IMG/VR virus record: IMGVR_UViG_3300019132_000034
Coordinates: 1 to 51,158 of that record
Reading direction: 5' to 3' (one strand)
Length of the DNA stretch: 51,158 nucleotides
Source of the DNA: a virus
Part shown: positions 12,278-23,691 of the stretch, piece after piece
How positions within the stretch are numbered: the stretch's first letter is position 1
How the letters are laid out: each line of letters starts with the position of its first letter
Notes under the pieces: generated by a model
What the model was told of the DNA's origin: nothing
The model's input: the letters and a program-made list of their open reading frames with translations, nothing else
The model's database searches: none
Position numbers and translations under genes: made by a program

Positions 12278-12582
12278 GCGGCAAAAAATCACGAAGCAAA
12301 GGGCAGCGCAGGGAAAGGGAGTTTGCGAAAGCGATTGAGGGTATTCGCATTCCCCTTTCCGGGGCGCAGAAAGGTTTTGGGAATGATGTGGAGGGATTAG
12401 GTCTCAAGTGGGAAGTCAAATCGAGGAAAGATGGTTTTCAGACGCTCTACAAGTGGCTTGAAGATGAACGGGAGAAGCCGGATGCGTTGGCACTGAAAGC
12501 AGATCGGAAGGATTGGCTTGTTGTGTTGAAGCTCGATAGATTCATCGAATTGATGGGAGGAAAAGAAAATGGTGCAAATTAG
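12274..12582 (+). CDS. Putative PD-(D/E)XK Holliday-junction resolvase (Hjc-like)
   Basis: KGQRREREF...GNDVEGLGLKWEVKSRK (a D...E-x-K arrangement). Small size and replication-module context agree. Confidence 0.5.
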   Translation: MSGKKSRSKGQRREREFAKAIEGIRIPLSGAQKGFGNDVEGLGLKWEVKSRKDGFQTLYKWLEDEREKPDALALKADRKDWLVVLKLDRFIELMGGKENGAN

Positions 12583-12727
12583 CTTTGAAGTAGCGATGAA
12601 ATACTTAAAAGAAGGCGGTAGGGTGTATGTGGAATACAATGGCAAGAAACATGAGGTGGTAACGCCCGATGGTATCGTAAGTTTTCCGTTAGAGTTGACT
12701 AAAGGTCTTTGGTTTATTGGCGATTAA
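12569..12727 (+). CDS. Hypothetical 52-aa protein
   Basis: ATG follows GGGAGG. Confidence 0.45.
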   Translation: MVQISFEVAMKYLKEGGRVYVEYNGKKHEVVTPDGIVSFPLELTKGLWFIGD

Positions 12728-12746
12728 TCCGAAAGGGGCTGGTGCT

Positions 12747-12887
12747 ATGATTTTTGTTTTACGTCATCCAGCAACACAGAGAGAACTCAAGACAGAGGAT
12801 GAACTCAAGGCGAAGTATCTACAAGAAATCGGCTACAAACTTGTGAATCAGTATGATGAAAAGTCGGTAAGCAAGTATAAGGGGTGA
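12747..12887 (+). CDS. Hypothetical 46-aa protein
   Basis: ATG follows AAAGGGG. Confidence 0.4.
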   Translation: MIFVLRHPATQRELKTEDELKAKYLQEIGYKLVNQYDEKSVSKYKG

Positions 12888-12891
12888 GGGG

Positions 12892-13287
12892 ATGAACAAG
12901 GTTGAAAAACTCACCGAACTCTACAAAAAGGCGGCTTCTCTAAACGAGGAGCTGCCGGCTCAACTCATCGAGAAAATGGGTCTGTACGGTCAAATATATG
13001 AACTTCTCGGTTCTCTTCATGCGGAAGCAGAAGGAGAATATGGCCTGAAGGAAGCGGAACGGAAAGAAGTGATTGCCACCGTCTTTTGTTTGGATCCAGA
13101 AAAGACCGTAAAAGAACGAGAGATGAAAGCCGAACTTGCTTCCATTCCCAAACGAAAGGAGGAAGCGGAAGCCCGAAAAGAAGCCATACGATGGAAGAAT
13201 GCAAGGGAATCGGTGCTTGAGCAAATCAATATCATGAAAAAGAAATATGAGCACCTGTGCAATGTATTACAAAAAGGGGGAATTTAG
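12892..13287 (+). CDS. Hypothetical coiled-coil protein
   Basis: A 131-aa ORF with RBS GGGGTGAGGGG. Confidence 0.55.
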   Translation: MNKVEKLTELYKKAASLNEELPAQLIEKMGLYGQIYELLGSLHAEAEGEYGLKEAERKEVIATVFCLDPEKTVKEREMKAELASIPKRKEEAEARKEAIRWKNARESVLEQINIMKKKYEHLCNVLQKGGI

Positions 13288-13290
13288 TTT

Positions 13291-13722
13291 ATGGCCGTTG
13301 CGGCTCCGAAAATCAAAAAAGCAACCTTCAAACACATTGAAGCAGAACTACACAGCTACCGTGATACGCTACGTGAAATTGACCAGCTGCGCAAAGACAT
13401 TATGTTTTGTAGCGAACATACAGATGAAAATGTCGGTGGGGGAAGGAGCAACCTTCCTTCTAGTCCAACAGAACGAATCGGAACAACATTGGTGACACAT
13501 CGGAGACTGCAACAGCTAGAAACCATTGCAAACGCCATCCAATTAGTCTATGATCGGGTGCCAGATGACCACAAAAAATTGATTCAATTAAAATATTGGA
13601 CCAAACCACAACGCTACACATGGGATGGCATTGCCGAAAAACTACATATCAGTAAGCGGCAAGCCATGCGATGGCGGGATGAGATTGTATATACAATTGC
13701 GGAAGTATTGGGATGGAGGTAA
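13291..13722 (+). CDS. RinA-family / sigma-region-4-like late transcriptional activator
   Basis: HIEAELHSYRD...GGGRSN...S.TE... and a C-terminal HTH (ISKRQAMRWRDEIV). It is the last gene before the accessory island and late genes. Confidence 0.7.
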   Translation: MAVAAPKIKKATFKHIEAELHSYRDTLREIDQLRKDIMFCSEHTDENVGGGRSNLPSSPTERIGTTLVTHRRLQQLETIANAIQLVYDRVPDDHKKLIQLKYWTKPQRYTWDGIAEKLHISKRQAMRWRDEIVYTIAEVLGWR

Positions 13723-13730
13723 AAGTAAAG

Positions 13731-13746
13731 TGTCATTTTTATGTCA
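13731..13746. promoter_or_regulatory. Two TGTCA boxes 11 nt apart, upstream of RNA element A
   Basis: TGTCA at 13731 and 13742, which is the reverse complement of the TGACA boxes upstream of element B. Confidence 0.3.
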
Positions 13747-13789
13747 CTTTTAGCATAAAATAATAGTTTACAATAATAGTGTGAGATTA

Positions 13790-13902
13790 TAGCTATTCTC
13801 AAAGTCTGTCACTAGAACGAGCTAGTCTGAATCCTTTTGGCTTGGAAAACCAAAAGGAGCGAGTTTCGACAAACGCTGCTCCAATCGGGGGTGGCGTTTT
13901 TT
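13790..13902 (+). ncRNA. Structured RNA-like element A (paralogue of 20723-20835), ending in an intrinsic terminator
   Basis: Conserved 5' block TAGCTATTCTCAAAGYCTGTCACTAGAAC, then hairpin CCTTTTGG/CCAAAAGG. This is followed by conserved GGAGCGAGTTYCGACAA and a GC stem plus T-run. Confidence 0.5.
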
Positions 13903-14085
13903 ACTTTACAATAAAAAAACCCTTTGGCATATAAAGGTGAAAGAGTTGCCAAAGGAATGTCGAAAAAGGGTAAGTATTTAGAAACTAAGTATCGTATTAC
14001 AAATCGAAAATATCACAAAAATTACCAATTGTGAATATGTATTCTAAGTAAACTATGTTCTAAATGCGAAAATGAGGTGAAAGGC

Positions 14086-14241
14086 ATGGAACGATACAAG
14101 GATGATGAGGAAGAAAAATGGCTGAATGAGGTCTATGAAAAACACCAATGCAAAGGGTGCGTATGGGCTTTTTGGCAACAAAAACGGATCGTGTCATGCC
14201 TTTTTTCTCGTTGTGTGAAGGAATCTCTCTCTTCTGGATAA
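14086..14241 (+). CDS. Hypothetical Cys-containing 51-aa protein
   Basis: ATG follows GAGGTGA. Confidence 0.4.
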   Translation: MERYKDDEEEKWLNEVYEKHQCKGCVWAFWQQKRIVSCLFSRCVKESLSSG

Positions 14242-14262
14242 GCTATCCATGAGGTGAGAAAC

Positions 14263-14424
14263 ATGTACAATTGGGAGGACAAATGTACGTTTATTGAATT
14301 AAAACTGATGGCAGCGAGTATTCTTTGCAAAGTGATGGGTGATGAGGTGTACCGGAAAGAACACCTAATAACCGATTTACAAACGTTAATCAGAAGGTTA
14401 GATGCGGAGGAACCGAAGTTATAA
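14263..14424 (+). CDS. Hypothetical 53-aa protein
   Basis: ATG follows GAGGTGAGA. Confidence 0.4.
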   Translation: MYNWEDKCTFIELKLMAASILCKVMGDEVYRKEHLITDLQTLIRRLDAEEPKL

Positions 14425-14644
14425 AAAGATGGGAGGTCCGTGTTTTTAGACCGGACCGAAAAAAAGCCAGAACTGTTCCCGGCGCTCGCTACATTAAGTA
14501 TATCACGGGAGGGGGCCAAGTGGTGAAGCAATTGTCATTTAACCTTCCTGAGATAGAAAGAGAAAAAACGAAAGAAGTGTTGAAGCTGCACTGGAGAAAT
14601 ATCGATTTTATCTCCTAACGGTTCCGGAGGAACGATTACCAAAA

Positions 14645-14965
14645 GTGGCAGCGACATATTCACTTGTTCCTCCTGCTCACAAAAATGCCTTTCATTCACC
14701 TACAGAAACAGCAGTGATTGACAAAGTGGATTTCGAACGAGAAAGAGATGAGTATATGGAATGGATTAGACGCAGCGTGAATCGCCTCAGTCCGAGGGAA
14801 CGAGAGTTAATCGTCAAGCGATACTTGAGTGATGAGGAAATGTATGATTATGAACTTTACAATGAGATGGGAATGTCTGGACGGCAGTACTACCGAACGA
14901 AGGCGAGAACATTATATAAACTTGCAGTAATTCTTCGTATAGAAGTTTACAAAAAGAAAGCGTAA
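14645..14965 (+). CDS. ArpU-family transcriptional regulator, paralogue 1
   Basis: Paralogous to 17633-18037 (VPPAH...DFERERDEYME...RYL..EE.YDYE.YN.MG). The expected N-terminus (LPEIEREK) lies in the -1-related frame from GTG 14523. Confidence 0.65.
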   Translation: MAATYSLVPPAHKNAFHSPTETAVIDKVDFERERDEYMEWIRRSVNRLSPRERELIVKRYLSDEEMYDYELYNEMGMSGRQYYRTKARTLYKLAVILRIEVYKKKA

Positions 14966-15268
14966 ATAAAAAATCTAAGGTACACATTCTTTAAAATGAA
15001 ATAGGTAATTTTCTCTTTTTTCTCAATCAAAATGGCCGTAAAATATGAAGTATCTAATTCATTTTTACATACCTGTTAAATTTAGTAATACTAACGGATT
15101 CAGTGGATTACCCAATAATACGAAATATGGGTATGGGTAATTAGAGAAAAATCTAAATAAACATTAGTTCCTAGTAGTTTAGTGAACCATTAAATAGTTA
15201 GTTGTATTACCATTCTGTGAGTATGTAGAGTGAAGTTTGGCGGGGGGAACTTTGGAAGGGGAGTGGCT

Positions 15269-16108
15269 ATGACCTTTAATCATAGAATAGTTCCGGGACA
15301 AATACTAGAGAATCATGAAATTGTTTCTATTTTTAAATGTGCTCCTCGGGGTGGGATGCGTCGGTCATTAAGGACTAATTCTCTTGTAATAGTATCGGAC
15401 CATACCGAATCTTTATACGAAGATCGCTGGGAAGATGATGTGTTTCATTACACTGGAATGGGAAGGACAGGAGACCAAAAGTTAGATTCCGGACAAAATA
15501 AGACATTAGCAGAGTCACGTGCCAATGGGGTAGACATTTATCTTTTTGAAGTGTTTCGGGAAAAAGAATATGTTTTCATAGGACAGGTTGAGTTGGCTGG
15601 TCAGCCATATCAAGAGGAGCAGTTGGATATAGAAAATAATTTAAGATTAGTTTGGGTTTTTCCATTAAGATTAAGAGGCAACACCAAACCATTTGAACTT
15701 CCCCAAGAGTGGATTGAAACAAAAAATAAATCCAGGGAGAAAAAGGCAAAGAAGTTGTCAGATGGGGAGTTAAAGGTAAGAGCAAGGCATACCAGCAAGA
15801 AAGCAGTTAAACGTGCGACTAGTAAGATCTCATATGAGCGAAATCCTTATGTCAGCGAGTATGCAAAAAGATGGGCAAACGGTATATGCCAACTTTGTGG
15901 TGAGGAAGCGCCATTTCGAGATAAAAATGGGACCCCGTATTTAGAGTCCCACCACATTGAATGGTTAGCGCGCGGTGGAGATGATACAATTGAGAATACA
16001 ATTGCCCTTTGTCCAAACTGTCATAAGAAGATGCATATACTCGATCGAAAAAGCGATGTAGAAAAGCTAAAAAATCGTGTTAGAGAGCATCTTCTGTCCT
16101 TAATGTAA
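15269..16108 (+). CDS. SRA/YDG-like reader domain fused to an HNH nuclease (putative type IV modification-dependent restriction enzyme)
   Basis: N-terminal SLVIVSDH..LYEDRWEDDVFHYTGMGRTGDQ...QNKTLAES resembles the SRA YEDD..YTG.GG pattern. C-terminal HNH is CQLCG...ESHHIEW...NTIALCPNCHKKMH. The ATG at 15269 has RBS GGAAGGGGA. Confidence 0.6.
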   Translation: MTFNHRIVPGQILENHEIVSIFKCAPRGGMRRSLRTNSLVIVSDHTESLYEDRWEDDVFHYTGMGRTGDQKLDSGQNKTLAESRANGVDIYLFEVFREKEYVFIGQVELAGQPYQEEQLDIENNLRLVWVFPLRLRGNTKPFELPQEWIETKNKSREKKAKKLSDGELKVRARHTSKKAVKRATSKISYERNPYVSEYAKRWANGICQLCGEEAPFRDKNGTPYLESHHIEWLARGGDDTIENTIALCPNCHKKMHILDRKSDVEKLKNRVREHLLSLM

Positions 16109-16136
16109 ATGTTCGTAATTAGGTGGTCGATCAATA

Positions 16137-16466
16137 ATGAAAGAATTGATTCAGAAAGTTGTCATGTTTCGAGATAAACGAAACTGGAAACAATTTCACA
16201 ATGCTAAAGATCTTGCAATATCTTTATCTATTGAGGCAAGTGAGCTTCTTGAAAATTTTCAGTGGAAGACAAGCGAGGAAGCTGTTAAGGAAAACTTAGA
16301 AGATATTAAAGATGAGGTTGCTGATGTTGTTATTTATGCAATGTTGCTTTCGAATGAATTAGATTTTAACTTAGAAGAAGTTATTGAGCAGAAAATAAAG
16401 AAAAATGAAGAAAAGTATCCGATTGAAAAGGCATACGGAAGTAATAAAAAGTACAACGAATTATAG
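16137..16466 (+). CDS. MazG-like all-alpha NTP pyrophosphatase (dCTPase/DCTPP1-like)
   Basis: EASELLENFQW and EVADVVIYAMLL metal-binding motifs. Length 109 aa. Confidence 0.7.
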   Translation: MKELIQKVVMFRDKRNWKQFHNAKDLAISLSIEASELLENFQWKTSEEAVKENLEDIKDEVADVVIYAMLLSNELDFNLEEVIEQKIKKNEEKYPIEKAYGSNKKYNEL

Positions 16467-16519
16467 GAATATGAGGGATTTACCTATATTTCGTTTTTCT
16501 AAGGACGGGTGATATTAGG

Positions 16520-17527
16520 ATGTTGTACTACTTTACTGCTAGCGACGATGATGCACAGAAACATTTCTATGATACTATTGAACAGCCGTGTAACATTGGA
16601 AAGTATATCTCTATGCTTGACTCTGCTACTGTAGATATTTTAAAGCAGAACAGTAAAGATAAATATGTACATATGTGGGGGGCAACACCAGGAAAATCTA
16701 ACCGAGATCGGTGGGATAAATTAAAATCTGGAGATAAAATATTGGCTTACTCTAAGGGAGTATTTCTGTATTACGGAACAATTTTCGCTAAAACACAAAA
16801 CCAGAGAGTTGCTGAGTTAATTTGGGGGACCAATAAAGAAGGGGAGACTTGGGAGTATATCTACTTTATTAAAGATCTCAGGAAGGTAGAAATTCCTGTA
16901 GAAAAATTTAACGCATTTTTTGATTATAAAATGAACTTTACCCCTCAAGGCTTTTCGAATATTGAAAAGAAAAGGTTTACTTTGAGATATGAAAAATACG
17001 GATCAATTGACAAAATAATTGAAGTTCTTGAAAGTCAATTTATTATCTCTGAAGAAGAAATAGAAGAGGATAATTATCAAATAAGTATTCAGTCTTCTTC
17101 ATTGAATAAGGTTAAGATTGAGGGGGGGATTAAACCTGAAAAACGTCCGAAACCAAGGAAAGAAAAGGGAAAGCAGGTATGGCCAAGGGATCCGAAAAAA
17201 GCTCAACAAGCGTTGAAGAGAGCTGAGTTTAAATGTGAGATTGATGAATCACATATAACGTTCATGAGTGAGGCAAGTAATGTCCCTTATATGGAAGCAC
17301 ATCATTTAATACCACTGAAAATGCAACATGAGTTTGAACAAAGCTTAGATGTGATCGGTAATATTGTTAGTTTATGTCCAAACTGTCATCGAATGATTCA
17401 CCATGCGAAACCTAGGGAAAAGAAGAAGTTATTAGAACAATTGTATCAGAAACGAAAATGTGAGTTAGAACAAAGTAGTTTAAATATTGATCTTGAATAT
17501 TTGTTGAGTGTATACGCAATAAAATAG
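16520..17527 (+). CDS. HNH nuclease with an N-terminal PUA/EVE-like putative reader domain
   Basis: C-terminal MEAHHLIPL...NIVSLCPNCHRMIHH. The N-terminal 150 aa (WGATPGKSN..W..LKSGDKILAY...WEYIYFI) is assigned only tentatively. Confidence 0.55.
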   Translation: MLYYFTASDDDAQKHFYDTIEQPCNIGKYISMLDSATVDILKQNSKDKYVHMWGATPGKSNRDRWDKLKSGDKILAYSKGVFLYYGTIFAKTQNQRVAELIWGTNKEGETWEYIYFIKDLRKVEIPVEKFNAFFDYKMNFTPQGFSNIEKKRFTLRYEKYGSIDKIIEVLESQFIISEEEIEEDNYQISIQSSSLNKVKIEGGIKPEKRPKPRKEKGKQVWPRDPKKAQQALKRAEFKCEIDESHITFMSEASNVPYMEAHHLIPLKMQHEFEQSLDVIGNIVSLCPNCHRMIHHAKPREKKKLLEQLYQKRKCELEQSSLNIDLEYLLSVYAIK

Positions 17528-17632
17528 CATCTTACCGGTTAATCGGGGCATACTGAAAGGGTTTTGGTGCTTGTTTGGTCAAATAGATGTTAAGATGAAA
17601 TAAACGGTTTGTTATTTACCTGAAGTTAACAG

Positions 17633-18037
17633 GTGGGGAGGAGAGTTGAATCTGCATTGGAGAAATATCGATTTTATCTCCTAACGGTTCCAGAGGAAAA
17701 GCTACCGAGGGTGGCAGTGGCATATTCATTTGTTCCTCCTGCTCACATCAATCGTTTTTATTCATCTACAGAAAGCGCGGCCATCCAAATAGCAGATTTT
17801 GAACGAGAACGCGATGAGTACATGGAGAGAATACGCCGCGTAGTGAATCGGCTCAATAAAACGGAGCGAGGATTGATTAGACGATATATGACGCTTGAAG
17901 AACCTTATGATTACGAGATCTACAACGACATGGGAATCAGTGAATCGAGGTTCTACCGCGTTCGCGAAAAGGCGTTCTACAAGCTGGCCTTTGCGTTGCG
18001 GATTGAGGTTTACAAAGAAGAAGAGGCACCTGTTTAG
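17633..18037 (+). CDS. ArpU-family transcriptional regulator, paralogue 2
   Basis: A 134-aa ORF with the ArpU-type pattern LEKYRFYLL...S.TE.A...DFERERDEYM...YRVREKAFYKLA. Confidence 0.7.
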   Translation: MGRRVESALEKYRFYLLTVPEEKLPRVAVAYSFVPPAHINRFYSSTESAAIQIADFERERDEYMERIRRVVNRLNKTERGLIRRYMTLEEPYDYEIYNDMGISESRFYRVREKAFYKLAFALRIEVYKEEEAPV

Positions 18038-18052
18038 GGTGCTTTATTATTT
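18026..18052 (+). terminator. Possible intrinsic terminator
   Basis: GCACC/GGTGC stem followed by a T-rich run. Confidence 0.4.
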
Positions 18053-18194
18053 ACTCAGTATATAGTGTGATATTGGTAAAAACCAGGATGTAACATTGTA
18101 TATGTTTACCTGAGTATTTTCAACATTTTTTAATTGATTAAATATAAATTAATTACTAAAATATTACTATAAAGGAAGAAAAGGAGGGGATTAA

Positions 18195-18659
18195 ATGCCA
18201 ACGGTCTTCGAGGTCGCAAGATACTTTTTAAGTAAAAGCGTCCCAAATACTCCGTGGGCAATTACCCACCTAAAATTACAAAAATTAGCTTATTATGCAC
18301 AAGGTTGGTATCTAGCTTTTACTGGAAATGTTCTATTTAATGAAAGACTAGAGGCATGGGTTCATGGGCCTGTTAGTCCTGATCTTTTTCATAAATATAG
18401 GAGATTCGGACACAATGAAATACCACAAGAAGATTTCCCAGATAGTAGGTCCATTTTTACAAAAAAACAACTAGAGGTGCTCGATGCCGTATGGGAAGCA
18501 TATGGGGAATACAGTGGAAAGTTTTTAGAAGAATTAACCCACCAAGAACTTCCTTGGCTTGAAGCAAGATCAAATCTTGATTCCAATGATTATTCAAATG
18601 AAGTTATTTTGGTTGATACAATACGTTCATATTTTAGAAACCAGCTAGGAGACGAATAA
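18195..18659 (+). CDS. DUF4065 / Panacea-domain (GepA/SocA-like) antitoxin-like protein
   Basis: THLKLQKLAYYAQGWYLAF.G..LF.E..EAWVHGPV hallmark. Confidence 0.75.
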   Translation: MPTVFEVARYFLSKSVPNTPWAITHLKLQKLAYYAQGWYLAFTGNVLFNERLEAWVHGPVSPDLFHKYRRFGHNEIPQEDFPDSRSIFTKKQLEVLDAVWEAYGEYSGKFLEELTHQELPWLEARSNLDSNDYSNEVILVDTIRSYFRNQLGDE

Positions 18660-18679
18660 CCTTTTTCGTCTCTTAATTT

Positions 18680-20569
18680 GTGTTAAATGGAGGGAAAGCA
18701 TTGTATTTGGAAAGGGTAAGAGAGATTATCAGATGGGTTATTATTGTGCTCAAAAACCTACTAATTTTTTGTTTTAGACTCATTTTTTCTATTAGTCAAT
18801 TGTACGGACTCTTAGTCAGAAGAACGTTTGTTTTATTGATACTTTACGCAATTATTTATTATTTATTATTTTACAGGTTTTCTATTGCACAGTTTCAGGC
18901 AGATATTAATCAAGAAAATGAAATGTTTTTAGCAAAAATATTTAAGTATGTGCATATTTTTCAAGCGAATGATGAAGTAGTGATGCAAATTATCTCTTCC
19001 GGAACAAAGTTTTTAAGTGTTGTATTCTCTGTAATATTGACACTATTTATTTTTTCGCATAGGGAACAAAGAGCAATCGCACCTTCGTCAACTTACCGGT
19101 TTTATAAAAACTATATTTTTTTATTTTTTCTTTCATTATTAATGATAACTATGCCTTACGGGTTTCACTTATCACTTATCTATAAGTCTAGTTTACATAC
19201 ACAATATTCGGAATTGGGTATTACTATTACATACTTTGGACGATTTGTTACATGGATTATTCTCTTCTTATTTTCCATTGTGCTTATTGGATATACAATT
19301 GTTTCTTTATTTCGAACTATTAACATTAATTGGTTATTACCTGTAACTATTCAACAAGTAAGATCCACATTAATAAACCTGGAGGTTGTGTTGGATAACA
19401 GGTGGTTTAGGAAAACAAGAATAAATGAATACAATGAATTGAATTTTAATATTGAAAGTGTTTATCAAATGCTTGAATATGCTGCTGAAAATAATATGAG
19501 CAAAGACTATTATGATAATATAGAAAAACTACGAGAAACGTTCTCTATTCTAAAAAAGGAACATTTTTATTATAAATCATCATCAGTCTACGCAAGTTTT
19601 TATAATAGGGACCAAGAAGAGTTTAGATCTTTTCATAGGTCTGTCTTAAAAAATACCTTATCATTAGCTACTGCTCTATATAAAAATAATAAGTTTAACA
19701 AAGGACAGAAAGCATTGGACCTATTATTTTCTCTATACTCAGATAAAATTCCTCCCGTTTTGAGGCATGACTATATTGCGAGTATTTATGAGTTAATACA
19801 ATTAACTGATTTAAAAAATGGGGCAAAAGTTCGTGCAATTTTAAACGGTTTGGAAACAATGAAGACGGAATATACACTCATTTTGTATCAAGCTCTAATA
19901 CTTCGAATAATTAGTGAGAACAACATACAATTACTAACGTCAGTTGTTTACTCAATGAAAAAAAATATAGATAGGAATATAAAGCCTAATAACGGTGGAA
20001 TACCACGTATTGAGTTAATTATTAATAAAGCTTTAAAAAGAAAATATAAGCTGTTGAATATAGGGATACTTTTACAGTGTATGGTGAAAAGTATTGAGTT
20101 GTCTCATTACGCTTGTACAGGCTTTTTAATAAAATTTCTTGTTACAAACTTCAGTGGAAAATTGGTGAAGGAAGCTTTTAATGCTTTGTTGAATAATGGA
20201 ATGGTTTTTGGTACTATCTATCCCAACATGGGGGAGAACGTGCATTTAGACATTGATTACTACTTCAACGAAAAAACATACGATTATTGCTTAAAGAAAT
20301 TGTGTATTCTATTGTACGGGCAACAAAGGTATGCAGTAAGAAACGGTCTATCTTTTATTGAAGAATTTCATAAAGAGTCGTATGAATACATTGATATAGG
20401 ATCGGCATTCGTAGAGTGTGACTACAAAGAATATATATTTACTAAGGTATTGTCAGCAGGGAAAAAGTATGGATTTCTTTATCTAAAGGATAAGGAATTC
20501 TTAAGAGATCTTGCTAAGGATTTTGGTGTTCAAACATTATTGATGGAGGAGTTGCTTCCTGACCTTTAA
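18680..20569 (+). CDS. Large polytopic membrane protein of unknown function (candidate toxin/effector partner of the Panacea protein)
   Basis: About 6 hydrophobic helices in the first ~215 aa, then an alpha-helical soluble region of about 400 aa. The gene is AT-rich. The likely true start is TTG 18701, after GGAGGG. Confidence 0.6.
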   Translation: MLNGGKALYLERVREIIRWVIIVLKNLLIFCFRLIFSISQLYGLLVRRTFVLLILYAIIYYLLFYRFSIAQFQADINQENEMFLAKIFKYVHIFQANDEVVMQIISSGTKFLSVVFSVILTLFIFSHREQRAIAPSSTYRFYKNYIFLFFLSLLMITMPYGFHLSLIYKSSLHTQYSELGITITYFGRFVTWIILFLFSIVLIGYTIVSLFRTININWLLPVTIQQVRSTLINLEVVLDNRWFRKTRINEYNELNFNIESVYQMLEYAAENNMSKDYYDNIEKLRETFSILKKEHFYYKSSSVYASFYNRDQEEFRSFHRSVLKNTLSLATALYKNNKFNKGQKALDLLFSLYSDKIPPVLRHDYIASIYELIQLTDLKNGAKVRAILNGLETMKTEYTLILYQALILRIISENNIQLLTSVVYSMKKNIDRNIKPNNGGIPRIELIINKALKRKYKLLNIGILLQCMVKSIELSHYACTGFLIKFLVTNFSGKLVKEAFNALLNNGMVFGTIYPNMGENVHLDIDYYFNEKTYDYCLKKLCILLYGQQRYAVRNGLSFIEEFHKESYEYIDIGSAFVECDYKEYIFTKVLSAGKKYGFLYLKDKEFLRDLAKDFGVQTLLMEELLPDL

Positions 20570-20632
20570 GGGGGATAAGAAGATTGTTCCCCATTGGAAT
20601 CCATTCAGGAATTCCATTTTAATTAGGGATAG

Positions 20633-20670
20633 TGACAGAAAACTGAAGGAAAAATGACGGAAAGATGACA
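20633..20670. promoter_or_regulatory. Three phased TGAC(A/G) boxes upstream of RNA element B
   Basis: Boxes at 20633, 20655 and 20666, a spacing of 22 and 11 nt. Confidence 0.3.
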
Positions 20671-20722
20671 GATTATTTTGGTTTAGACGTGTTATGATGG
20701 TATCGTGGATCTTTTGTTGAAG

Positions 20723-20835
20723 TAGCTATTCTCAAAGCCTGTCACTAGAACTAGCGAGTCCGAATCTCGTTTGTGTGGAAAGCAGGCGGGAGCGAGTTCC
20801 GACAAGCGTCACCCGATCAGGTGGCGTTTTTATTT
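20723..20835 (+). ncRNA. Structured RNA-like element B (paralogue of 13790-13902), ending in an intrinsic terminator
   Basis: Same conserved blocks as copy A. The central stem CTCGTTTG/CAGGCGGG and the terminator stem CGTCACC/GGTGGCG differ in sequence from copy A but still pair. Confidence 0.5.
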
Positions 20836-20880
20836 TGGCGGTTTAAATATTATAATTAACTTGAGGGAGGGCGGAAAAGG

Positions 20881-21615
20881 ATGGAAAATTTTATTTCTCT
20901 ACTAGTTTTTACGTTACCAGGTTTATTAACTTATTTCTGGATCCAATTATTCGGTTTAACCCCAACCGTTAAACATCAAAGTACAGAGATGTTGGCAATT
21001 AGTGCTCTATTATGGATACCGGTTATGGTTACAGTATTATTCTTTTATCAATTATTGGCGTATGCTTCAAGCTTAGACATGTTCTATTTGGGAGTTGATA
21101 TACCAATTTTAAAAAAAGATTGGACCATGATAAATAAGTTAAGTGACATAGTTACTTTGCCCGACAATGTATGGTTTTTATTATATTTTGTAGCATCAAG
21201 TATAATAGTTAGTTTTTATGTAGCAAAATTTATATGTAAAAAGGGTTATAAAAAATTATTACATAAGGTTAACCAAATTCGTAAAGAAAATGGGTTAGCT
21301 CCATTATCTGGAAATACAACAGTTTGGAACGAAGCATTTTTGGGAAATGAAGGGCAATTAGTCGAGGTTTACAAAATTGATAAACCAGACGAAAAGGTGA
21401 TTGGTTGTATAAAAAAAGTGTCCAGAGCGTTCGAGCCCGAAAAAAATATTGTTCTTGAGGGCGTCGAGCACTGGACAGAAGTGATGAAACATTATCACGT
21501 TGAAATCGATGATATATTTATTGATACTAAAACAGGATTGGTAATTAAGATATATAATACAGATCAGGCACTAGAGGCGCAGAACTTATACAACAACAGT
21601 AAAGCTACTTCTTAG
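20881..21615 (+). CDS. Membrane protein of unknown function
   Basis: A 244-aa ORF with about 4 N-terminal hydrophobic helices. RBS GAGGGAGGG. Confidence 0.6.
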   Translation: MENFISLLVFTLPGLLTYFWIQLFGLTPTVKHQSTEMLAISALLWIPVMVTVLFFYQLLAYASSLDMFYLGVDIPILKKDWTMINKLSDIVTLPDNVWFLLYFVASSIIVSFYVAKFICKKGYKKLLHKVNQIRKENGLAPLSGNTTVWNEAFLGNEGQLVEVYKIDKPDEKVIGCIKKVSRAFEPEKNIVLEGVEHWTEVMKHYHVEIDDIFIDTKTGLVIKIYNTDQALEAQNLYNNSKATS

Positions 21616-21736
21616 GCTGAACACCTGTTGAAGGTGGCTTCATGGTTAATGAAGGCTTGTCTGCAGAATTCTGTTGATGTCCCTGTCCAGTACCAATTGG
21701 TTTGACATTAGTCTGAAATGGGGGTCTTTTTCCCAT
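21605..21736 (-). CDS. Hypothetical 43-aa Pro/Gly/Gln-rich protein
   Basis: ATG follows GGAGGTAAAAATT on the minus strand, downstream of the DUF2188 gene. Confidence 0.4.
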   Translation of the reverse strand: MGKRPPFQTNVKPIGTGQGHQQNSADKPSLTMKPPSTGVQPKK

Positions 21737-21943
21737 AATTTTTACCTCCTTTGCTATATATACTTTAGTAAACTATAAACCAATGTACAAAGTTAGTTAG
21801 GCTAAAGTCCCCGGGTAAGAGGTATTTTTTTGCTCTTAGAAGCCGTAAAGATAAAAAAAGGTGATAATTAAAAGCACCTTAGGATGTTTCTTCTTTTTTC
21901 ATAAAAAGAACCACCAAGACGTTGGTAAAGTTAATTTTAAGAA

Positions 21944-22168
21944 TTAGCCTTTAGGTGGAAAAGTGTCGTTTCCATATGAATCTTTAGCACGAATTCTTCC
22001 ATCTGGTCTGTGAATAACAAGCTCCAACGCTTCTTTCCGGGCAATATCTCTTGCTTTATCTACTGCATCTTTTTGAGTATCATGTCGCGAAGAAGCTCTC
22101 GGCGCCCCACCTCTTTTTACTTGCCATCCACCGTCTGGATGTGGTGTAACGTGTATTGTATCTGACAT
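21944..22168 (-). CDS. DUF2188-family protein
   Basis: DGGWQVKRGGA.RASS.H.TQKDAV..AR.IA......LVIHRPDGRI...SYGND..PPKG. Confidence 0.7.
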   Translation of the reverse strand: MSDTIHVTPHPDGGWQVKRGGAPRASSRHDTQKDAVDKARDIARKEALELVIHRPDGRIRAKDSYGNDTFPPKG

Positions 22169-22238
22169 AATTCCACCTCCTTTCTTTTTACAAAATTCCC
22201 CAAAAAGGAAGAAAATTCCTTCTTTTTTGTCGAATTAG

Positions 22239-22466
22239 GTGGATAGAAGGGGGAGAAATTTGGAAGAGGCAACTCAAGCTATTCAAAAACTTGCGTGGAC
22301 ACTAACCTTAAAACTCGTATGGCTTATATTATTGATGTTTGTGTTTTATGCTTTGGCCTTCTTTCTCGCGAGGTCTCTTCGTTTACCATTTAAGATAGCC
22401 AATACATTCGGCAGCCTGGCTAGCCTGGTTGGTTTTTACTTTTGGACTCAATACATAATTTCTTAA
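22239..22466 (+). CDS. Small two-helix membrane protein
   Basis: Hydrophobic segments LVWLILLMFVFYALAFFLA and LASLVGFYFW. TTG 22260 after AGGGGGAG is an alternative start. Confidence 0.5.
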   Translation: MDRRGRNLEEATQAIQKLAWTLTLKLVWLILLMFVFYALAFFLARSLRLPFKIANTFGSLASLVGFYFWTQYIIS

Positions 22467-22483
22467 TCATATTGAGAAATTTG

Positions 22484-22510
22484 GCATCCGAATAATCGGG
22501 TGCTTTTTTA
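22484..22510 (+). terminator. Intrinsic terminator
   Basis: GCATCCG/CGGGTGC stem followed by TTTTTT. Confidence 0.7.
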
Positions 22511-22797: not shown

Positions 22798-23691
22798 GTG
22801 GCTAGGCAAAGAGATCCTAAACGAGATGAAGCTTTTGAAATATGGAAAAATAGCGGAGGAACTAAAAAATTAAACGAGATTGCCGAGGAGCTCGGAGTAA
22901 GTCCAGGAACGGTTCGTGGTTGGAAAAATAAAGATGCCTGGGAAGAAAAATTAAACGGAACGTTCCAAAAAAAGAAACGGAGCGCTCTTGTAAATGAAAC
23001 GGAACGTTCCAAACCTAAAAGGGGAGCGCCGCTAGGAAATAAAAATGCTTTAGGTAACAAAGGAGGGGCTCCGCCTGGTAATAAAAACGCAGTAGGTAAT
23101 AAAGGTGGAGCCGCTCCTCTGAGAAATGCTAATGCGGTGAAAACCGGTGAGTTCAGGAGTCTGTGGTATGACATATTAGATGAAGATGAAAAGCAATTGG
23201 TGAATCAAATTGAGGTTGTCGAACCGATTCAACAAGTGATTGATGAAATTAAATTGTACTCTTTCCGGGAAGCGTTCATTATGAAACGGATTAAGGCACT
23301 CAAAGAAGGGATGACCTCCGCTCAAAAACGGGTGTTAAAACAACTAAAAAAAGTGAAGGACAAAGTGAAGGTAGATGATCCGAATAGCAGCGAAGGCTAC
23401 CGCATAATCGAAAAGGAAGATTATAAGTTGATGGAGACGGAAATTGAGGAGATTTCCGCAGATCCGGTGGAACAAGTTTTAGCCCACGAGGAAGCCCTTA
23501 CTCGAGTTCAAGATAAAAAGGTTAAGGCTTTGGATTTGCTGTTTCGTATGACAGATGAGTTTAATCATAAAAAGTTGATGGATGAAATTAAAACAACCAT
23601 CCTGCAAGAGAAATGGGACAAAGAGAAAAAAGGAAATGAGGATGACAAACCGATTGAAATCATCATTAAACGAAAAGGTGATGATGGATGA
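22798..23691 (+). CDS. terS: Terminase small subunit
   Basis: N-terminal HTH ([22 protein letters not shown]) and repeated GAPxGNKNAxGNKGG motifs. It lies directly upstream of terL. Confidence 0.8.

What the first reader, a model, noticed from the sequence alone, without database searches (positions are those of the whole stretch)
13790..13902. Paralogous ~113-nt terminator-ended structured RNA-like element (partner at 20723-20835) with compensatory stem changes
The two copies share near-identical blocks: TAGCTATTCTCAAAGYCTGTCACTAGAAC...AGTCYGAATC and GGAGCGAGTTYCGACAA.

The two intervening stems differ in sequence but both still pair:
- Central hairpin: CCTTTTGG/CCAAAAGG in copy A versus CTCGTTTG/CAGGCGGG in copy B. 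The loop keeps TGGAAA in both.
- 3' terminator stem: CGCTGCTCC/GGGGGTGGCG in copy A versus CGTCACC/GGTGGCG in copy B. A T-run follows in both.

In both copies the conserved GGAGC/GGG segment could instead pair with the left arm of the terminator. This would be an attenuator or riboswitch-like design. I do not recognise the element as any named RNA family.
Basis: seen in the sequence. Interest (0 to 1): 0.75.

Follow-up and report, generated by a model that had tools for sequence, protein, structure and literature searches.

The report
Phage late-operon leader RNA with terminator
The two ~113-nt copies are the transcribed leaders of this phage's two late-gene promoters: a rare, previously undescribed ~82-nt folded RNA domain fused to a widely conserved terminator that late transcription must read through.

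Summary
Copies A (13790-13902) and B (20723-20835) are about 80% identical, and the similarity stops at their edges. The apical hairpin and the terminator differ by pair-preserving changes, including G.U pairs that fit only the + strand. No Rfam family matches.

Context changes the reading. Each copy lies just downstream of one of the only two tandem regulator-box promoters in the window. One is RinA-type (boxes at 13730) and one is ArpU-type (boxes at 20632-20671).

The 3' third, the terminator, is a standard part of ArpU-type late-promoter modules: 29 distinct modules were collected. In at least 7 of 30, the first late gene's ribosome-binding site lies 30 nt or less after the terminator. Late transcripts must therefore read through it.

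The 5' ~82 nt is a rare insert between start site and terminator. Five sequence variants are known. Its best-supported fold is a long irregular hairpin capped by a GGAA loop.

Best guess, inferred: a cis-acting leader module that affects read-through. A trans-acting by-product sRNA is the main rival.

The parts
13291..13722 (+). RinA-family late transcription regulator (Ltr) gene, immediately upstream of module A
   Evidence: NCBIfam TIGR01636 phage_rinA, 107.6 bits against a cut-off of 31.9.
13730..13747 (+). Tandem regulator boxes GTGTCAT-N4-ATGTCAC with an 11-bp period
   Evidence: One of only two tandem-box sites in the window. The same ATGWCAC-N4-ATGWCAC motif sits right after the stop codon of RinA-family homologues in 19 of 35 loci examined. 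Direct repeats distal to ltr genes are the experimentally defined Ltr binding sites (PMC3753634).
13750..13777 (+). Sigma-A-like promoter of module A (TTAGCA-16-AATAAT). Inferred start site about 13784.
   Evidence: Promoter scan. The spacing from the boxes is the same as in homologous loci, which carry TTGACA/TTGGCA-16-TATGAT followed by AGTGTG. The start site is inferred, not measured.
13790..13871 (+). Copy A of the ~82-nt structured leader domain. It has a 17-nt conserved 5' tail and a long irregular hairpin: TGTC 13807-13810 with GACA 13868-13871, and apical stem 13832-13840 with 13850-13858. The GGAA loop is at 13844-13847.
   Evidence: Covariance model R1 scores it 100.6 bits.
13871..13902 (+). 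Intrinsic terminator of copy A: stem 13871-13899 and T-run 13897-13902
   Evidence: Terminator scan, 12 pairs. Hairpin energy -15.3 kcal/mol. The 3' arm is the same as in the common ArpU-type terminator (one extra G). The 5' arm differs by three transitions that all still pair, as C-G, U.G and G.U (my reading).
14521..14965 (+). Second ArpU-family regulator gene, frameshifted in an A-run. The intact ORF is 14645-14965.
   Evidence: TIGR01637, 105.9 bits. The N-terminal part reads in another frame. It is 82% identical to the L003 regulator.
17633..18037 (+). ArpU-family late regulator gene (Pfam DUF1492, the LtrB family of PMC3753634) associated with module B
   Evidence: TIGR01637, 105.1 bits. 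Pfam DUF1492, E = 0.0019, below the curated cut-off. It is 69% identical to the regulator in L003, which carries the same promoter and element.
20632..20671 (+). Array of ArpU-type boxes: GTGACAG 20632, CTGAAGG about 20643, ATGACGG 20654, ATGACAG 20665
   Evidence: The same array is conserved in 29 distinct modules from related phages.
20690..20698 (+). Extended -10 element TGTTATGAT of module B. Inferred start site about 20705.
   Evidence: Conserved as TGnTATGAT at a fixed distance from the boxes in nearly all of the 29 modules; two have TACAAT. The start site is inferred.
20723..20804 (+). Copy B of the ~82-nt structured leader domain. Apical stem 20765-20773 with 20783-20791. GGAA loop 20777-20780.
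   Evidence: R1 scores it 109.9 bits.
20804..20835 (+). Conserved promoter-proximal intrinsic terminator GCGTCACCCGATCAGGTGGCG followed by a T-run
   Evidence: Terminator scan. The same sequence ends the leader of 29 distinct ArpU-type modules, including Geobacillus phage GBSV1 (L224 and L223, which carry an identical module).

Best explanation
Each copy is the 5' leader of one of the phage's two late transcription units. A promoter carrying direct-repeat boxes for a RinA-family regulator (copy A) or an ArpU-family regulator (copy B) starts transcription 6-18 nt upstream of the element.

The nascent RNA first folds into the ~82-nt domain: a conserved single-stranded 5' tail plus a long irregular hairpin with a GGAA cap. 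It then meets a strong intrinsic terminator.

By default the product is therefore a terminated small RNA of about 115-135 nt. Expression of the downstream accessory, packaging and structural genes requires polymerase to read through the terminator. This is the logic of lambda pR'-tR'/Q.

The terminator is the generic part of the module. The 82-nt domain is an accessory insert present at both late units of this phage. I infer that it acts in cis on the RNA that carries it, as a recognition or handling site that tunes read-through of the adjacent terminator. That would be nut-, put- or RAT-like, but it would not work through a simple terminator/antiterminator hairpin switch.

Shown:
- the anatomy
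- the promoter context
- conservation of the terminator module
- the need for read-through
- RNA-level selection on the hairpin

Inferred:
- the start sites
- terminator efficiency
- the cis-acting role of the domain
For: (1) Context.
- The only two tandem-box sites in 51 kb lie directly upstream of the two copies.
- The adjacent or nearby genes belong to the RinA and ArpU families.
- Such proteins bind direct repeats distal to their genes to switch on late operons (PMC3753634).

(2) The terminator is generic.
- 29 distinct ArpU-type promoter-leader-terminator modules share GCGTCAC(T)CC...GG(G)GTGGCG followed by a T-run.
- 19 of them have only 24-26 nt between the -10 box and the terminator.
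- Of 19 RinA-type loci with tandem boxes, 16 have a terminator-like hairpin and T-run within 260 nt after the boxes. The window region 12500-22500 holds only 10 terminator-like sites on both strands in 10 kb, so I estimate about 0.1 expected by chance.

(3) Read-through is required. In at least 7 of 30 modules the first late ORF's RBS and start codon lie 30 nt or less after the terminator, which leaves no room for another promoter.

(4) Selection acts at the RNA level.
- The apical stem has 4 pairs with changes on both sides. It is 98% paired across 5 variants and contains + strand-only G.U pairs.
- Regions outside the stems are about 91% identical between A and B, while the stem is about 33% identical (my count).
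- The 5' terminator arm of copy A changed by three wobble-compatible transitions against an otherwise unchanged 3' arm.

(5) A cis role.
- The same domain sits at both late units, behind two unrelated promoter types.
- The domain's helix ends 0-2 nt before the terminator stem in every variant.
- Columns 16 and 84 (U-A in A, C-G in B, U.G in L001 and L003) would extend the domain helix into the base of the terminator.

(6) Precedent. The Listeria phi10403S sRNA rliG is listed among the phage genes next to LMRG_01530, near the ArpU-like llgA (LMRG_01529). It is expressed in lysogeny and is dispensable for virion production (PMC7397523).
Against: - There is no transcript data. Start sites, termination efficiency and read-through are all inferred.
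- Most related phages manage with the bare terminator, so the domain is not needed for the basic mechanism.
- No conserved antiterminator pairing exists.
- No candidate RNA-binding partner co-occurs with the element. The only extra shared ORF is a 75-aa membrane protein, and it also occurs without the element in L318 and L319.
- Only 5 sequence variants exist. All changes on both sides come from the single A-versus-rest contrast.
- The lower helices cannot be told apart from an alternative two-hairpin fold by covariation.
- Two copies could also result from mosaic recombination rather than from selection for a cis site.
Confidence: 0.42

Rival explanations
1. The element is a trans-acting small RNA. 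The terminated leader is itself the product, a by-product of terminator-controlled late promoters like E. coli StxS from pR' or Listeria rliG. The 82-nt insert would be RNA cargo whose conserved unpaired blocks pair with host or phage mRNAs, or sequester a protein.
For: - The default product is a discrete terminated RNA.
- Leader inserts differ between closely related modules, as cargo would: none, a 43-nt type, a 57-59-nt type, and the 82-nt type.
- Precedents exist in PMC7547250 and in rliG.
- The 5' tail and the loops are the most conserved parts.
Against: - A trans-acting RNA needs only one gene, yet this phage keeps a copy at each late promoter.
- No complementary target in the window rises above chance. 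The counts were 9-mers 34 and 26, 10-mers 9 and 6, and 11-mers 3 and 1 for A and B. The chance expectations were about 28, 7 and 1.7. Duplex scans gave no shared outlier.
- Host targets could not be searched.
Confidence: 0.22
2. The element is a ligand-sensing riboswitch or a classical transcription attenuator. The conserved domain would be an aptamer that switches between terminator and antiterminator.
For: - The conservation pattern resembles an aptamer: invariant junctions and loops with variable stems.
- The domain lies directly 5' of a terminator.
- Copy A can form GGAGC:GCUCC.
Against: - The antiterminator pairing is absent in B, L001, L003 and L263.
- The terminator hairpin is in the minimum-free-energy fold of all variants.
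- The same terminator works in modules with no upstream RNA.
- There is no Rfam match even at E<=10.
- The downstream genes give no metabolic theme.
Confidence: 0.07
3. The element is an RNA processing or stability element. The long irregular hairpin (about 21 bp with internal loops) would be an RNase III-type cleavage site or a 5' stabiliser for read-through late mRNA. Such a site would be needed at each transcription unit, like the repeated RNase III sites of T7 or the SP82 5' stabiliser (from my own knowledge of those systems).
For: - The long interrupted helix is the minimum-free-energy fold in 3 of 5 variants and beats the two-hairpin fold in 4 of 5.
- The element is present once per late unit.
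- A cis-acting element explains the duplication.
Against: - A processing site would not need about 60 nt of near-invariant sequence.
- Related phages lack it.
- No cleavage data exist.
Confidence: 0.1
4. The element is a DNA-level regulator site. CTGTCAC within the element is an inverted ArpU-type box (GTGACAG). It also matches the RinA-type box (ATGTCAC) at six of seven positions (TGTCAC). The late regulator would bind it downstream of the start site, as a roadblock, a loop or a loading site.
For: - CTGTCACTA in the element is the exact inverted copy of the distal box TAGTGACAG at 20630.
- The terminator's 5' arm CGTCAC is also box-like (my reading).
Against: - The box is mutated in L003 (CTGCCAC) and in L263 (CTGTCAA).
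- A 7-mer match in 82 nt has about a 1% chance probability, so it is suggestive only.
- A DNA site cannot explain the compensatory, G.U-containing stem changes.
Confidence: 0.08
5. The element is a neutral relic. The second copy would exist only because two late-regulation modules from different phages were joined by recombination, and the insert would have no function.
For: - The region between the copies is a mosaic holding three Ltr genes: one RinA-family and two ArpU-family, one of them frameshifted.
- Leaders in this family are indel hot-spots.
Against: The stem is about 33% identical but fully paired, while the loops and junctions are about 91% identical. That pattern is not neutral. Copy A also sits behind a RinA-type promoter, and the other RinA-type promoters examined carry different leaders.
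Confidence: 0.08

Closest known systems
Lambda-type late control: pR' promoter, short 6S leader, tR' terminator, Q antiterminator (and the StxS sRNA made from it, PMC7547250)
   Same: - The late-regulator gene is followed by a promoter carrying regulator sites.
- A short leader ends in a strong intrinsic terminator.
- The late genes lie behind the terminator, so late expression needs read-through.
- The default product is a small terminated RNA.
   Different: - The regulators are RinA/ArpU-family proteins. They are described as activators, and no antitermination activity is known for them.
- No sigma-dependent pause element was identified.
- Whether the regulator itself confers read-through is unknown.
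HK022 put RNAs (putL/putR) and lambda nut sites
   Same: - There are two paralogous copies per phage, each just downstream of a promoter.
- The stems vary with compensation.
- They are cis-acting elements needed once per operon.
   Different: - Model R1 finds nothing in HK022. The best hit is E = 0.65, and none of the eight hits lies between 23.2 and 30.4 kb.
- Here a terminator abuts the element.
- Interaction with polymerase or with Nus factors is untested.
- The resemblance of the 5' tail to boxA is weak: 7 of 12 positions against a consensus I recalled from memory.
Listeria sRNA rliG (Rfam RF02415)
   Same: - It is a small RNA listed next to the phage's ArpU-like late activator gene.
- It is expressed in lysogeny.
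- Its function is unknown and it is dispensable for virion production.
- The weak Rfam hit covers the box region upstream of copy A.
   Different: The hit scores 15.5 bits against a gathering score of 55, at E = 0.45. It aligns only the 3' end of the regulator gene, the boxes and the first part of the element, with most of the model deleted. The element is not a member.
Protein-dependent attenuators (LicT/SacY RAT-terminator) and riboswitch expression platforms
   Same: - A structured leader sits directly 5' of an intrinsic terminator.
- There is a possible 2-bp overlap of the domain helix with the base of the terminator (columns 15-16 with 84-85).
   Different: - There is no conserved alternative hairpin.
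- The terminator also exists without any upstream structure.
- No ligand or binding protein has been identified.

Membership tests
Any Rfam 15 family | Score at or above the family's gathering threshold | tested here: not met
   There were 0 hits at gathering score in the whole window. At E<=10 around A and B, and at E<=1 in L001, L003 and L263, only chance-level hits of 25 bits or less appeared.
Intrinsic (Rho-independent) terminator | G+C-rich hairpin immediately followed by a U-tract | tested here: met
   13871-13899 has 12 pairs and is followed by TTTTTT. 20804-20829 has 10 pairs and is followed by TTTTTATTTT. The hairpins are kept in the minimum-free-energy folds of all variants. Efficiency in vivo was not measured.
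Ltr-dependent (RinA/ArpU) late promoter region | [quoted passage not shown] | tested here: met
   TIGR01636 scores 107.6 bits for 13291-13722. TIGR01637 scores about 105 bits for 17633-18037 and for 14645-14965.
Ltr-dependent (RinA/ArpU) late promoter region | Direct repeats distal to the ltr gene and upstream of the late genes (PMC3753634) | tested here: met
   Tandem boxes occur at 13730-13747 and 20654-20671 and nowhere else in the window. They are conserved in homologous loci. Binding by the proteins was not tested.
Transcription attenuator / riboswitch | Conserved, mutually exclusive antiterminator that sequesters a terminator arm | tested here: not met
   In truncated-transcript folds, the 5' arm is paired with GGAGC only in copy A. 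Pairing is inconsistent or weak in B, L001, L003 and L263.
Transcription attenuator / riboswitch | Ligand- or factor-dependent change of termination | not testable with these tools
   This needs in vitro transcription or probing.
HK022 put-type cis antiterminator RNA | Sequence and structure homology to putL/putR | tested here: not met
   R1 was run against the whole HK022 genome with filters off. The best hit is E = 0.65 at 23170-23241, and no hit lies between 23.2 and 30.4 kb.
HK022 put-type cis antiterminator RNA | Acts in cis on the transcribing polymerase to suppress downstream terminators | not testable with these tools
   This needs reporter or in vitro assays.
Listeria rliG (RF02415) | Match to the covariance model at gathering score | tested here: not met
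   15.5 bits against a gathering score of 55, covering 13689-13839. The aligned core is the box region upstream of the element.
Structured RNA under selection (generic) | Pair-preserving variation beyond controls | tested here: inconclusive
   The apical stem has 4 pairs changed on both sides, and 7 of 500 shuffles reach that value. The slid controls give 0-2. There are only 5 sequences and one deep contrast. The lower helices show one-sided changes only.

The most novel reading that the evidence does not exclude
The 82-nt domain is a new class of cis-acting read-through (antitermination) RNA for Gram-positive phage late operons. More broadly, RinA/ArpU 'late activators' would work through promoter-proximal terminators in a Q-like manner rather than, or in addition to, simple promoter activation. 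The conserved CGTCAC...GTGGCG terminator, whose arms resemble the regulators' own DNA boxes, would be part of the recognition system.
Probability: 0.22. Interest if true: 0.8.

Novelty: new variant of a known kind. Interest (0 to 1): 0.55.

Why it matters
RinA/ArpU-family regulators control packaging, lysis and phage-mediated gene transfer in many Gram-positive temperate phages. How they act is unresolved. For example, RinA needs sequences more than 155 bp upstream of the mapped terS 5' end, and a terminator lies in between (PMC3152322).

The loci collected here show that both a RinA-type and an ArpU-type late promoter family place a strong, sequence-conserved terminator between the promoter and the first late gene. 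This makes terminator read-through a testable step of late control.

The 82-nt domain is a compact, rare add-on present at both late units of one phage. Constructs with and without the domain occur naturally on otherwise nearly identical promoter-terminator modules, so they offer a convenient handle for dissecting that step.

If the domain has no cis effect, the finding reduces to a narrow-range phage sRNA of unknown role.

Tried and rejected
Searches for more copies:
- Exact or gapped pattern scans were run for more copies. IMG/VR yielded only L001, L002 and L003 among many chance hits, which were screened with nhmmer.
- A pattern scan of one genome per species found 0.
- The JGI metagenome pattern scan found 0.
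- Loci were fetched through the two regulator proteins from viral, genome and metagenome collections, about 150 loci and 2 Mb. They were screened with nhmmer and covariance model R1. Only L263 was added.
- Look-ups through the neighbouring proteins gave identical copies only.
- INPHARED phage genomes match only the promoter part, not the domain.

Other tests:
- tRNA/tmRNA: none found.
- Trans-target search within the window by duplex energy and exact complementarity: nothing above chance.
- Co-occurring protein partner: none convincing.
- Two-hairpin fold against one long hairpin: covariation cannot separate them. Energies favour the long hairpin in 4 of 5 variants.
- K-turn and boxA readings of the conserved loops were considered by eye and dropped. 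The registers conflict with the covarying apical stem, and the match is weak.
- pLS20 conAn2 was rejected as an analogue because it is 260-600 bp long and differently organised.

Full report
OBSERVATION

An alignment that includes 90 nt of flank on each side shows that similarity begins at TAGCTATTC. It ends with the T-run after GGTGGCG, and the flanks are unrelated. A profile of the element finds exactly two places in the 51-kb window, at E = 1e-31 and 1e-37. This is therefore not a recent segmental duplication with extended flanks.

Both copies end in a hairpin plus T-run that the terminator scan calls: 13871-13899 and 20804-20829. No tRNA or tmRNA is present. No Rfam 15 family matches at gathering score or even at E<=10.

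WHAT SURROUNDS THE COPIES

The gene at 13291-13722, directly upstream of copy A, belongs to the RinA family (TIGR01636, 107.6 bits). The genes at 17633-18037 and 14645-14965 belong to the ArpU family (TIGR01637, about 105 bits). The gene at 14645-14965 is the 3' part of a frameshifted gene that starts near 14521.

These are the 'Ltr' late regulators of Gram-positive temperate phages. They bind direct repeats just distal to their own genes and are required for transcription of the packaging, morphogenesis and lysis operon (PMC3753634).

The window holds only two tandem-box sites:
- GTGTCAT-N4-ATGTCAC at 13730-13747
- ATGACGG-N4-ATGACAG at 20654-20671, which is part of a longer array starting with GTGACAG at 20632

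Each site lies just upstream of a sigma-A-like promoter, and each promoter lies just upstream of one copy.
- For copy A the promoter is TTAGCA-16-AATAAT at 13750-13777. The inferred start is about 6 nt before the element.
- For copy B an extended -10 element, TGTTATGAT, lies at 20690-20698. The inferred start is about 18 nt before the element.

Downstream of A lie small ORFs, the frameshifted ArpU-family gene, two HNH genes, a MazG-like gene, the second ArpU-family gene, a Panacea-domain gene and a 629-aa ORF. Downstream of B lie a DUF6338 membrane protein and then terS, terL and portal.

RELATED LOCI: THE ELEMENT HAS TWO PARTS WITH DIFFERENT HISTORIES

I fetched 53 loci through the RinA-family protein and 95 through the ArpU-family protein: 45 viral, 25 genomic and 25 metagenomic.

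In the RinA-type loci, the stop codon is followed by the same tandem ATGWCAC boxes, a near-consensus promoter (TTGACA/TTGGCA-16-TATGAT, then AGTGTG) and a leader of unrelated sequence.
- Of 19 loci with recognisable boxes, 16 have a terminator-like hairpin and T-run within 260 nt after the boxes.
- One search found 10 terminator-like sites on both strands in 10 kb, from which I estimate about 0.1 would be expected by chance.

In the ArpU-type loci I collected 29 distinct promoter-leader-terminator modules.
- All share the box array and a -10 element that is TGnTATGAT in nearly all (two have TACAAT).
- All share the same terminator, GCGTCAC(T)CC-loop-GG(G)GTGGCG followed by a T-run.
- In 19 of them only 24-26 nt separate the -10 box from the terminator.
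- Isolated phages such as Geobacillus GBSV1 (L224; L223 carries an identical module), phiOH2, vB_GthS_PK5.2 and Parageobacillus NIIg3.2 match the promoter part.

The 5' ~82 nt (TAGCTATTC...CGACAA) is an insert between start site and terminator. I found it only in:
- window copies A and B
- L001/L002
- L003 (the same as L243 and L320)
- L263 (the same element as in L316 and L317; a Metabacillus MAG and ENA contigs from the same study as the window)

That makes five distinct sequences. Pattern scans of species-representative genomes and JGI metagenomes found none. Covariance model R1 found no diverged copies in about 2 Mb of related loci.

READ-THROUGH IS REQUIRED

In at least 7 of 30 ArpU-type modules, the first late ORF's ribosome-binding site and start codon lie 30 nt or less after the terminator's T-run. 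There is no room for another promoter, so late transcripts must pass the terminator.

This is the logic of lambda pR'-tR'. I found no paper that assigns antitermination to RinA or ArpU proteins. Older data note a terminator between rinA and terS. They also note a RinA site more than 155 bp upstream of the mapped terS 5' end, which those authors found hard to reconcile with simple activation (PMC3152322).

In Listeria phi10403S, the sRNA rliG is listed among the phage genes next to LMRG_01530, close to the ArpU-like llgA (LMRG_01529). It is one of the few prophage transcripts made in lysogeny, and it is dispensable for virion production (PMC7397523). The only Rfam near-hit around copy A is rliG (E = 0.45), and its aligned core is the box region. 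I treat this as an analogy, not as membership.

STRUCTURE OF THE 82-NT DOMAIN

The apical hairpin (alignment columns 43-51 with 61-69) is well supported.
- Four pairs have changes on both sides (A against the others).
- Further one-sided changes keep pairing, in L001 (U.G, C-G) and L263 (G.U, U-A).
- 98% of cells are paired, against 26-49% when the 3' partners are slid.
- Several pairs are U.G, so the structure belongs to the + strand RNA.
- The loop keeps U-GGAA-A, a GNRA-type cap (my reading).

For the lower part, two folds fit about equally by pair counts.
- One is a two-hairpin fold, 93% paired.
- The other is a single long irregular hairpin: TGTC/GACA, GAACU/AGUUC and GC/GC below the apical stem, 97% paired.
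- Energies favour the long hairpin in 4 of 5 variants, and it is the minimum-free-energy fold of L001, L003 and L263.
- The 2-nt deletion in L263 falls in its internal loop, and the A-to-T change in L003 creates a U.G pair in it.
- With five sequences this remains provisional.

Outside the stems, A and B differ at only 5-6 of about 62 positions, whereas 12 of 18 apical-stem positions differ. That contrast argues for selection on sequence in the tail, internal loop and cap, and for selection on pairing only in the stem.

The terminator of copy A keeps the common 3' arm (with one extra G). Its 5' arm differs by three transitions that all still pair.

THE ATTENUATOR IDEA

I folded each transcript up to the terminator loop. 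The 5' terminator arm is sequestered by GGAGC only in copy A. In B, L001, L003 and L263 there is no consistent competitor, and in the full-length folds the terminator always forms. The many modules with a bare terminator close to the start site cannot use an RNA switch either. A classical attenuator or riboswitch is therefore not supported.

A small overlap remains possible. Columns 16 and 84 (U-A in A, C-G in B, U.G in L001 and L003, mismatch in L263) and columns 15 and 85 (G-C) would extend the domain helix by two pairs into the base of the terminator. That would resemble protein-stabilised RAT elements. This is my inference.

MECHANISM: WHAT I COMMIT TO

The elements are the leaders of the two Ltr-controlled late units. 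By default they give a terminated RNA of about 115-135 nt. Late expression needs read-through of a conserved terminator.

The 82-nt domain is an accessory, cis-acting module that affects that step. Two points favour a cis role:
- The same domain was retained at both late units behind unrelated promoter types.
- The domain abuts the terminator in every variant.

Three points weigh against it:
- Most relatives lack the domain.
- No partner protein co-occurs with it.
- There are no transcript data.

The main rival is a trans-acting by-product sRNA of the StxS or rliG kind. I found no target in the window above chance and could not search a host genome.

The remaining rivals are:
- RNase III-type processing or stabilisation
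- A DNA-level regulator site, since CTGTCAC is an inverted ArpU-type box and an exact inverted copy of the box at 20630
- A neutral recombination relic

COMPARISON WITH KNOWN SYSTEMS

The domain works most like lambda's pR'-leader-tR' arrangement. The domain itself is most like put or nut sites in copy number and position. However, R1 finds nothing in HK022, no Rfam family fits, and pLS20 conAn2 is much larger.

I therefore class it as a new variant of a known kind: a phage late-operon leader and cis-regulatory RNA. It has a very narrow known distribution.

SCORES

- Interest is 0.55. The element is real, under RNA-level selection and unclassified. The family-wide terminator architecture makes an open question about RinA/ArpU action testable.
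- Function is inferred, only five variants exist, and much of the 113 nt is a generic terminator.

Noticed in passing
L165-L198 (RinA-type) and L218-L312 (ArpU-type); window 13730-13902 and 20632-20835: Family-wide architecture: regulator boxes, then a sigma-A-like promoter, then a short leader, then a strong intrinsic terminator, then the first late gene. The terminator is present in 16 of 19 RinA-type loci with boxes and in 29 distinct ArpU-type modules. In at least 7 of 30 modules the first late RBS lies 30 nt or less after the terminator. This suggests that terminator read-through is a general step of Ltr-controlled late expression. I found no paper saying so.
   Followed up: partly
window 14521-14965: A third late-regulator gene (ArpU family, 82% identical to the L003 regulator) is split by a frameshift in an A-run. 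It could be a pseudogene, an assembly error or programmed slippage. The phage thus carries one RinA-family and two ArpU-family genes.
   Followed up: partly
window 20805-20826; 13806-13812 and 20739-20745; the modules listed: The conserved terminator arms resemble the regulators' DNA boxes. The 5' arm CGTCAC matches the RinA box ATGTCAC at five of six positions, and its reverse complement GTGACG resembles the ArpU box. In L235 the 3' arm is GTGACG. The domain itself contains CTGTCAC, an inverted ArpU box. This may be coincidence, common origin or a recognition feature.
   Followed up: no
L166 16620-17090: A phage related to the window has an ArpU-type promoter-terminator module. About 40 nt later come RinA-type tandem boxes and a ~230-nt leader. 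That leader's final hairpin uses the same CGTCACTC...GGGGTGGCG arms around a roughly 60-nt insert. Leaders in this group are hot-spots for structured inserts.
   Followed up: partly
window 13912-13965, - strand: Immediately after copy A there is a - strand terminator-like hairpin (CCTTTGGCA...TGCCAAAGG) followed by a T-run on the - strand. It caused the weak L10_leader and nse_sRNA Rfam hits. Its purpose is unclear because the neighbouring conserved ORFs are on the + strand.
   Followed up: no
window 15230-20569: An accessory cassette lies between the two leaders. It holds two HNH endonuclease genes (15230-16108 and 16520-17527), a MazG-like pyrophosphohydrolase (16137-16466), a SocA/Panacea-domain protein (18195-18659) and an adjacent 629-aa ORF with no family hit (18680-20569). 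The last two may be a toxin-antitoxin or defence pair.
   Followed up: no
window 13689-13839: There is a weak Rfam match to the Listeria sRNA rliG (15.5 bits, E = 0.45). Its aligned core is the tandem box motif. In the Listeria phage, rliG is listed next to the ArpU-like llgA and is expressed in lysogeny. The Rfam rliG model may in part describe a late-promoter region.
   Followed up: partly
L313-L317, L320 (ENA ERZ27286101, -116, -119, -122): The window corresponds to ENA contig ERZ27286119 k141_476855 (51.2 kb). Three other assemblies with neighbouring ENA accession numbers (probably the same study) hold related phages carrying the L003-type and L263-type variants of the element. That data set is therefore the best place to look for more variants.
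   Followed up: partly
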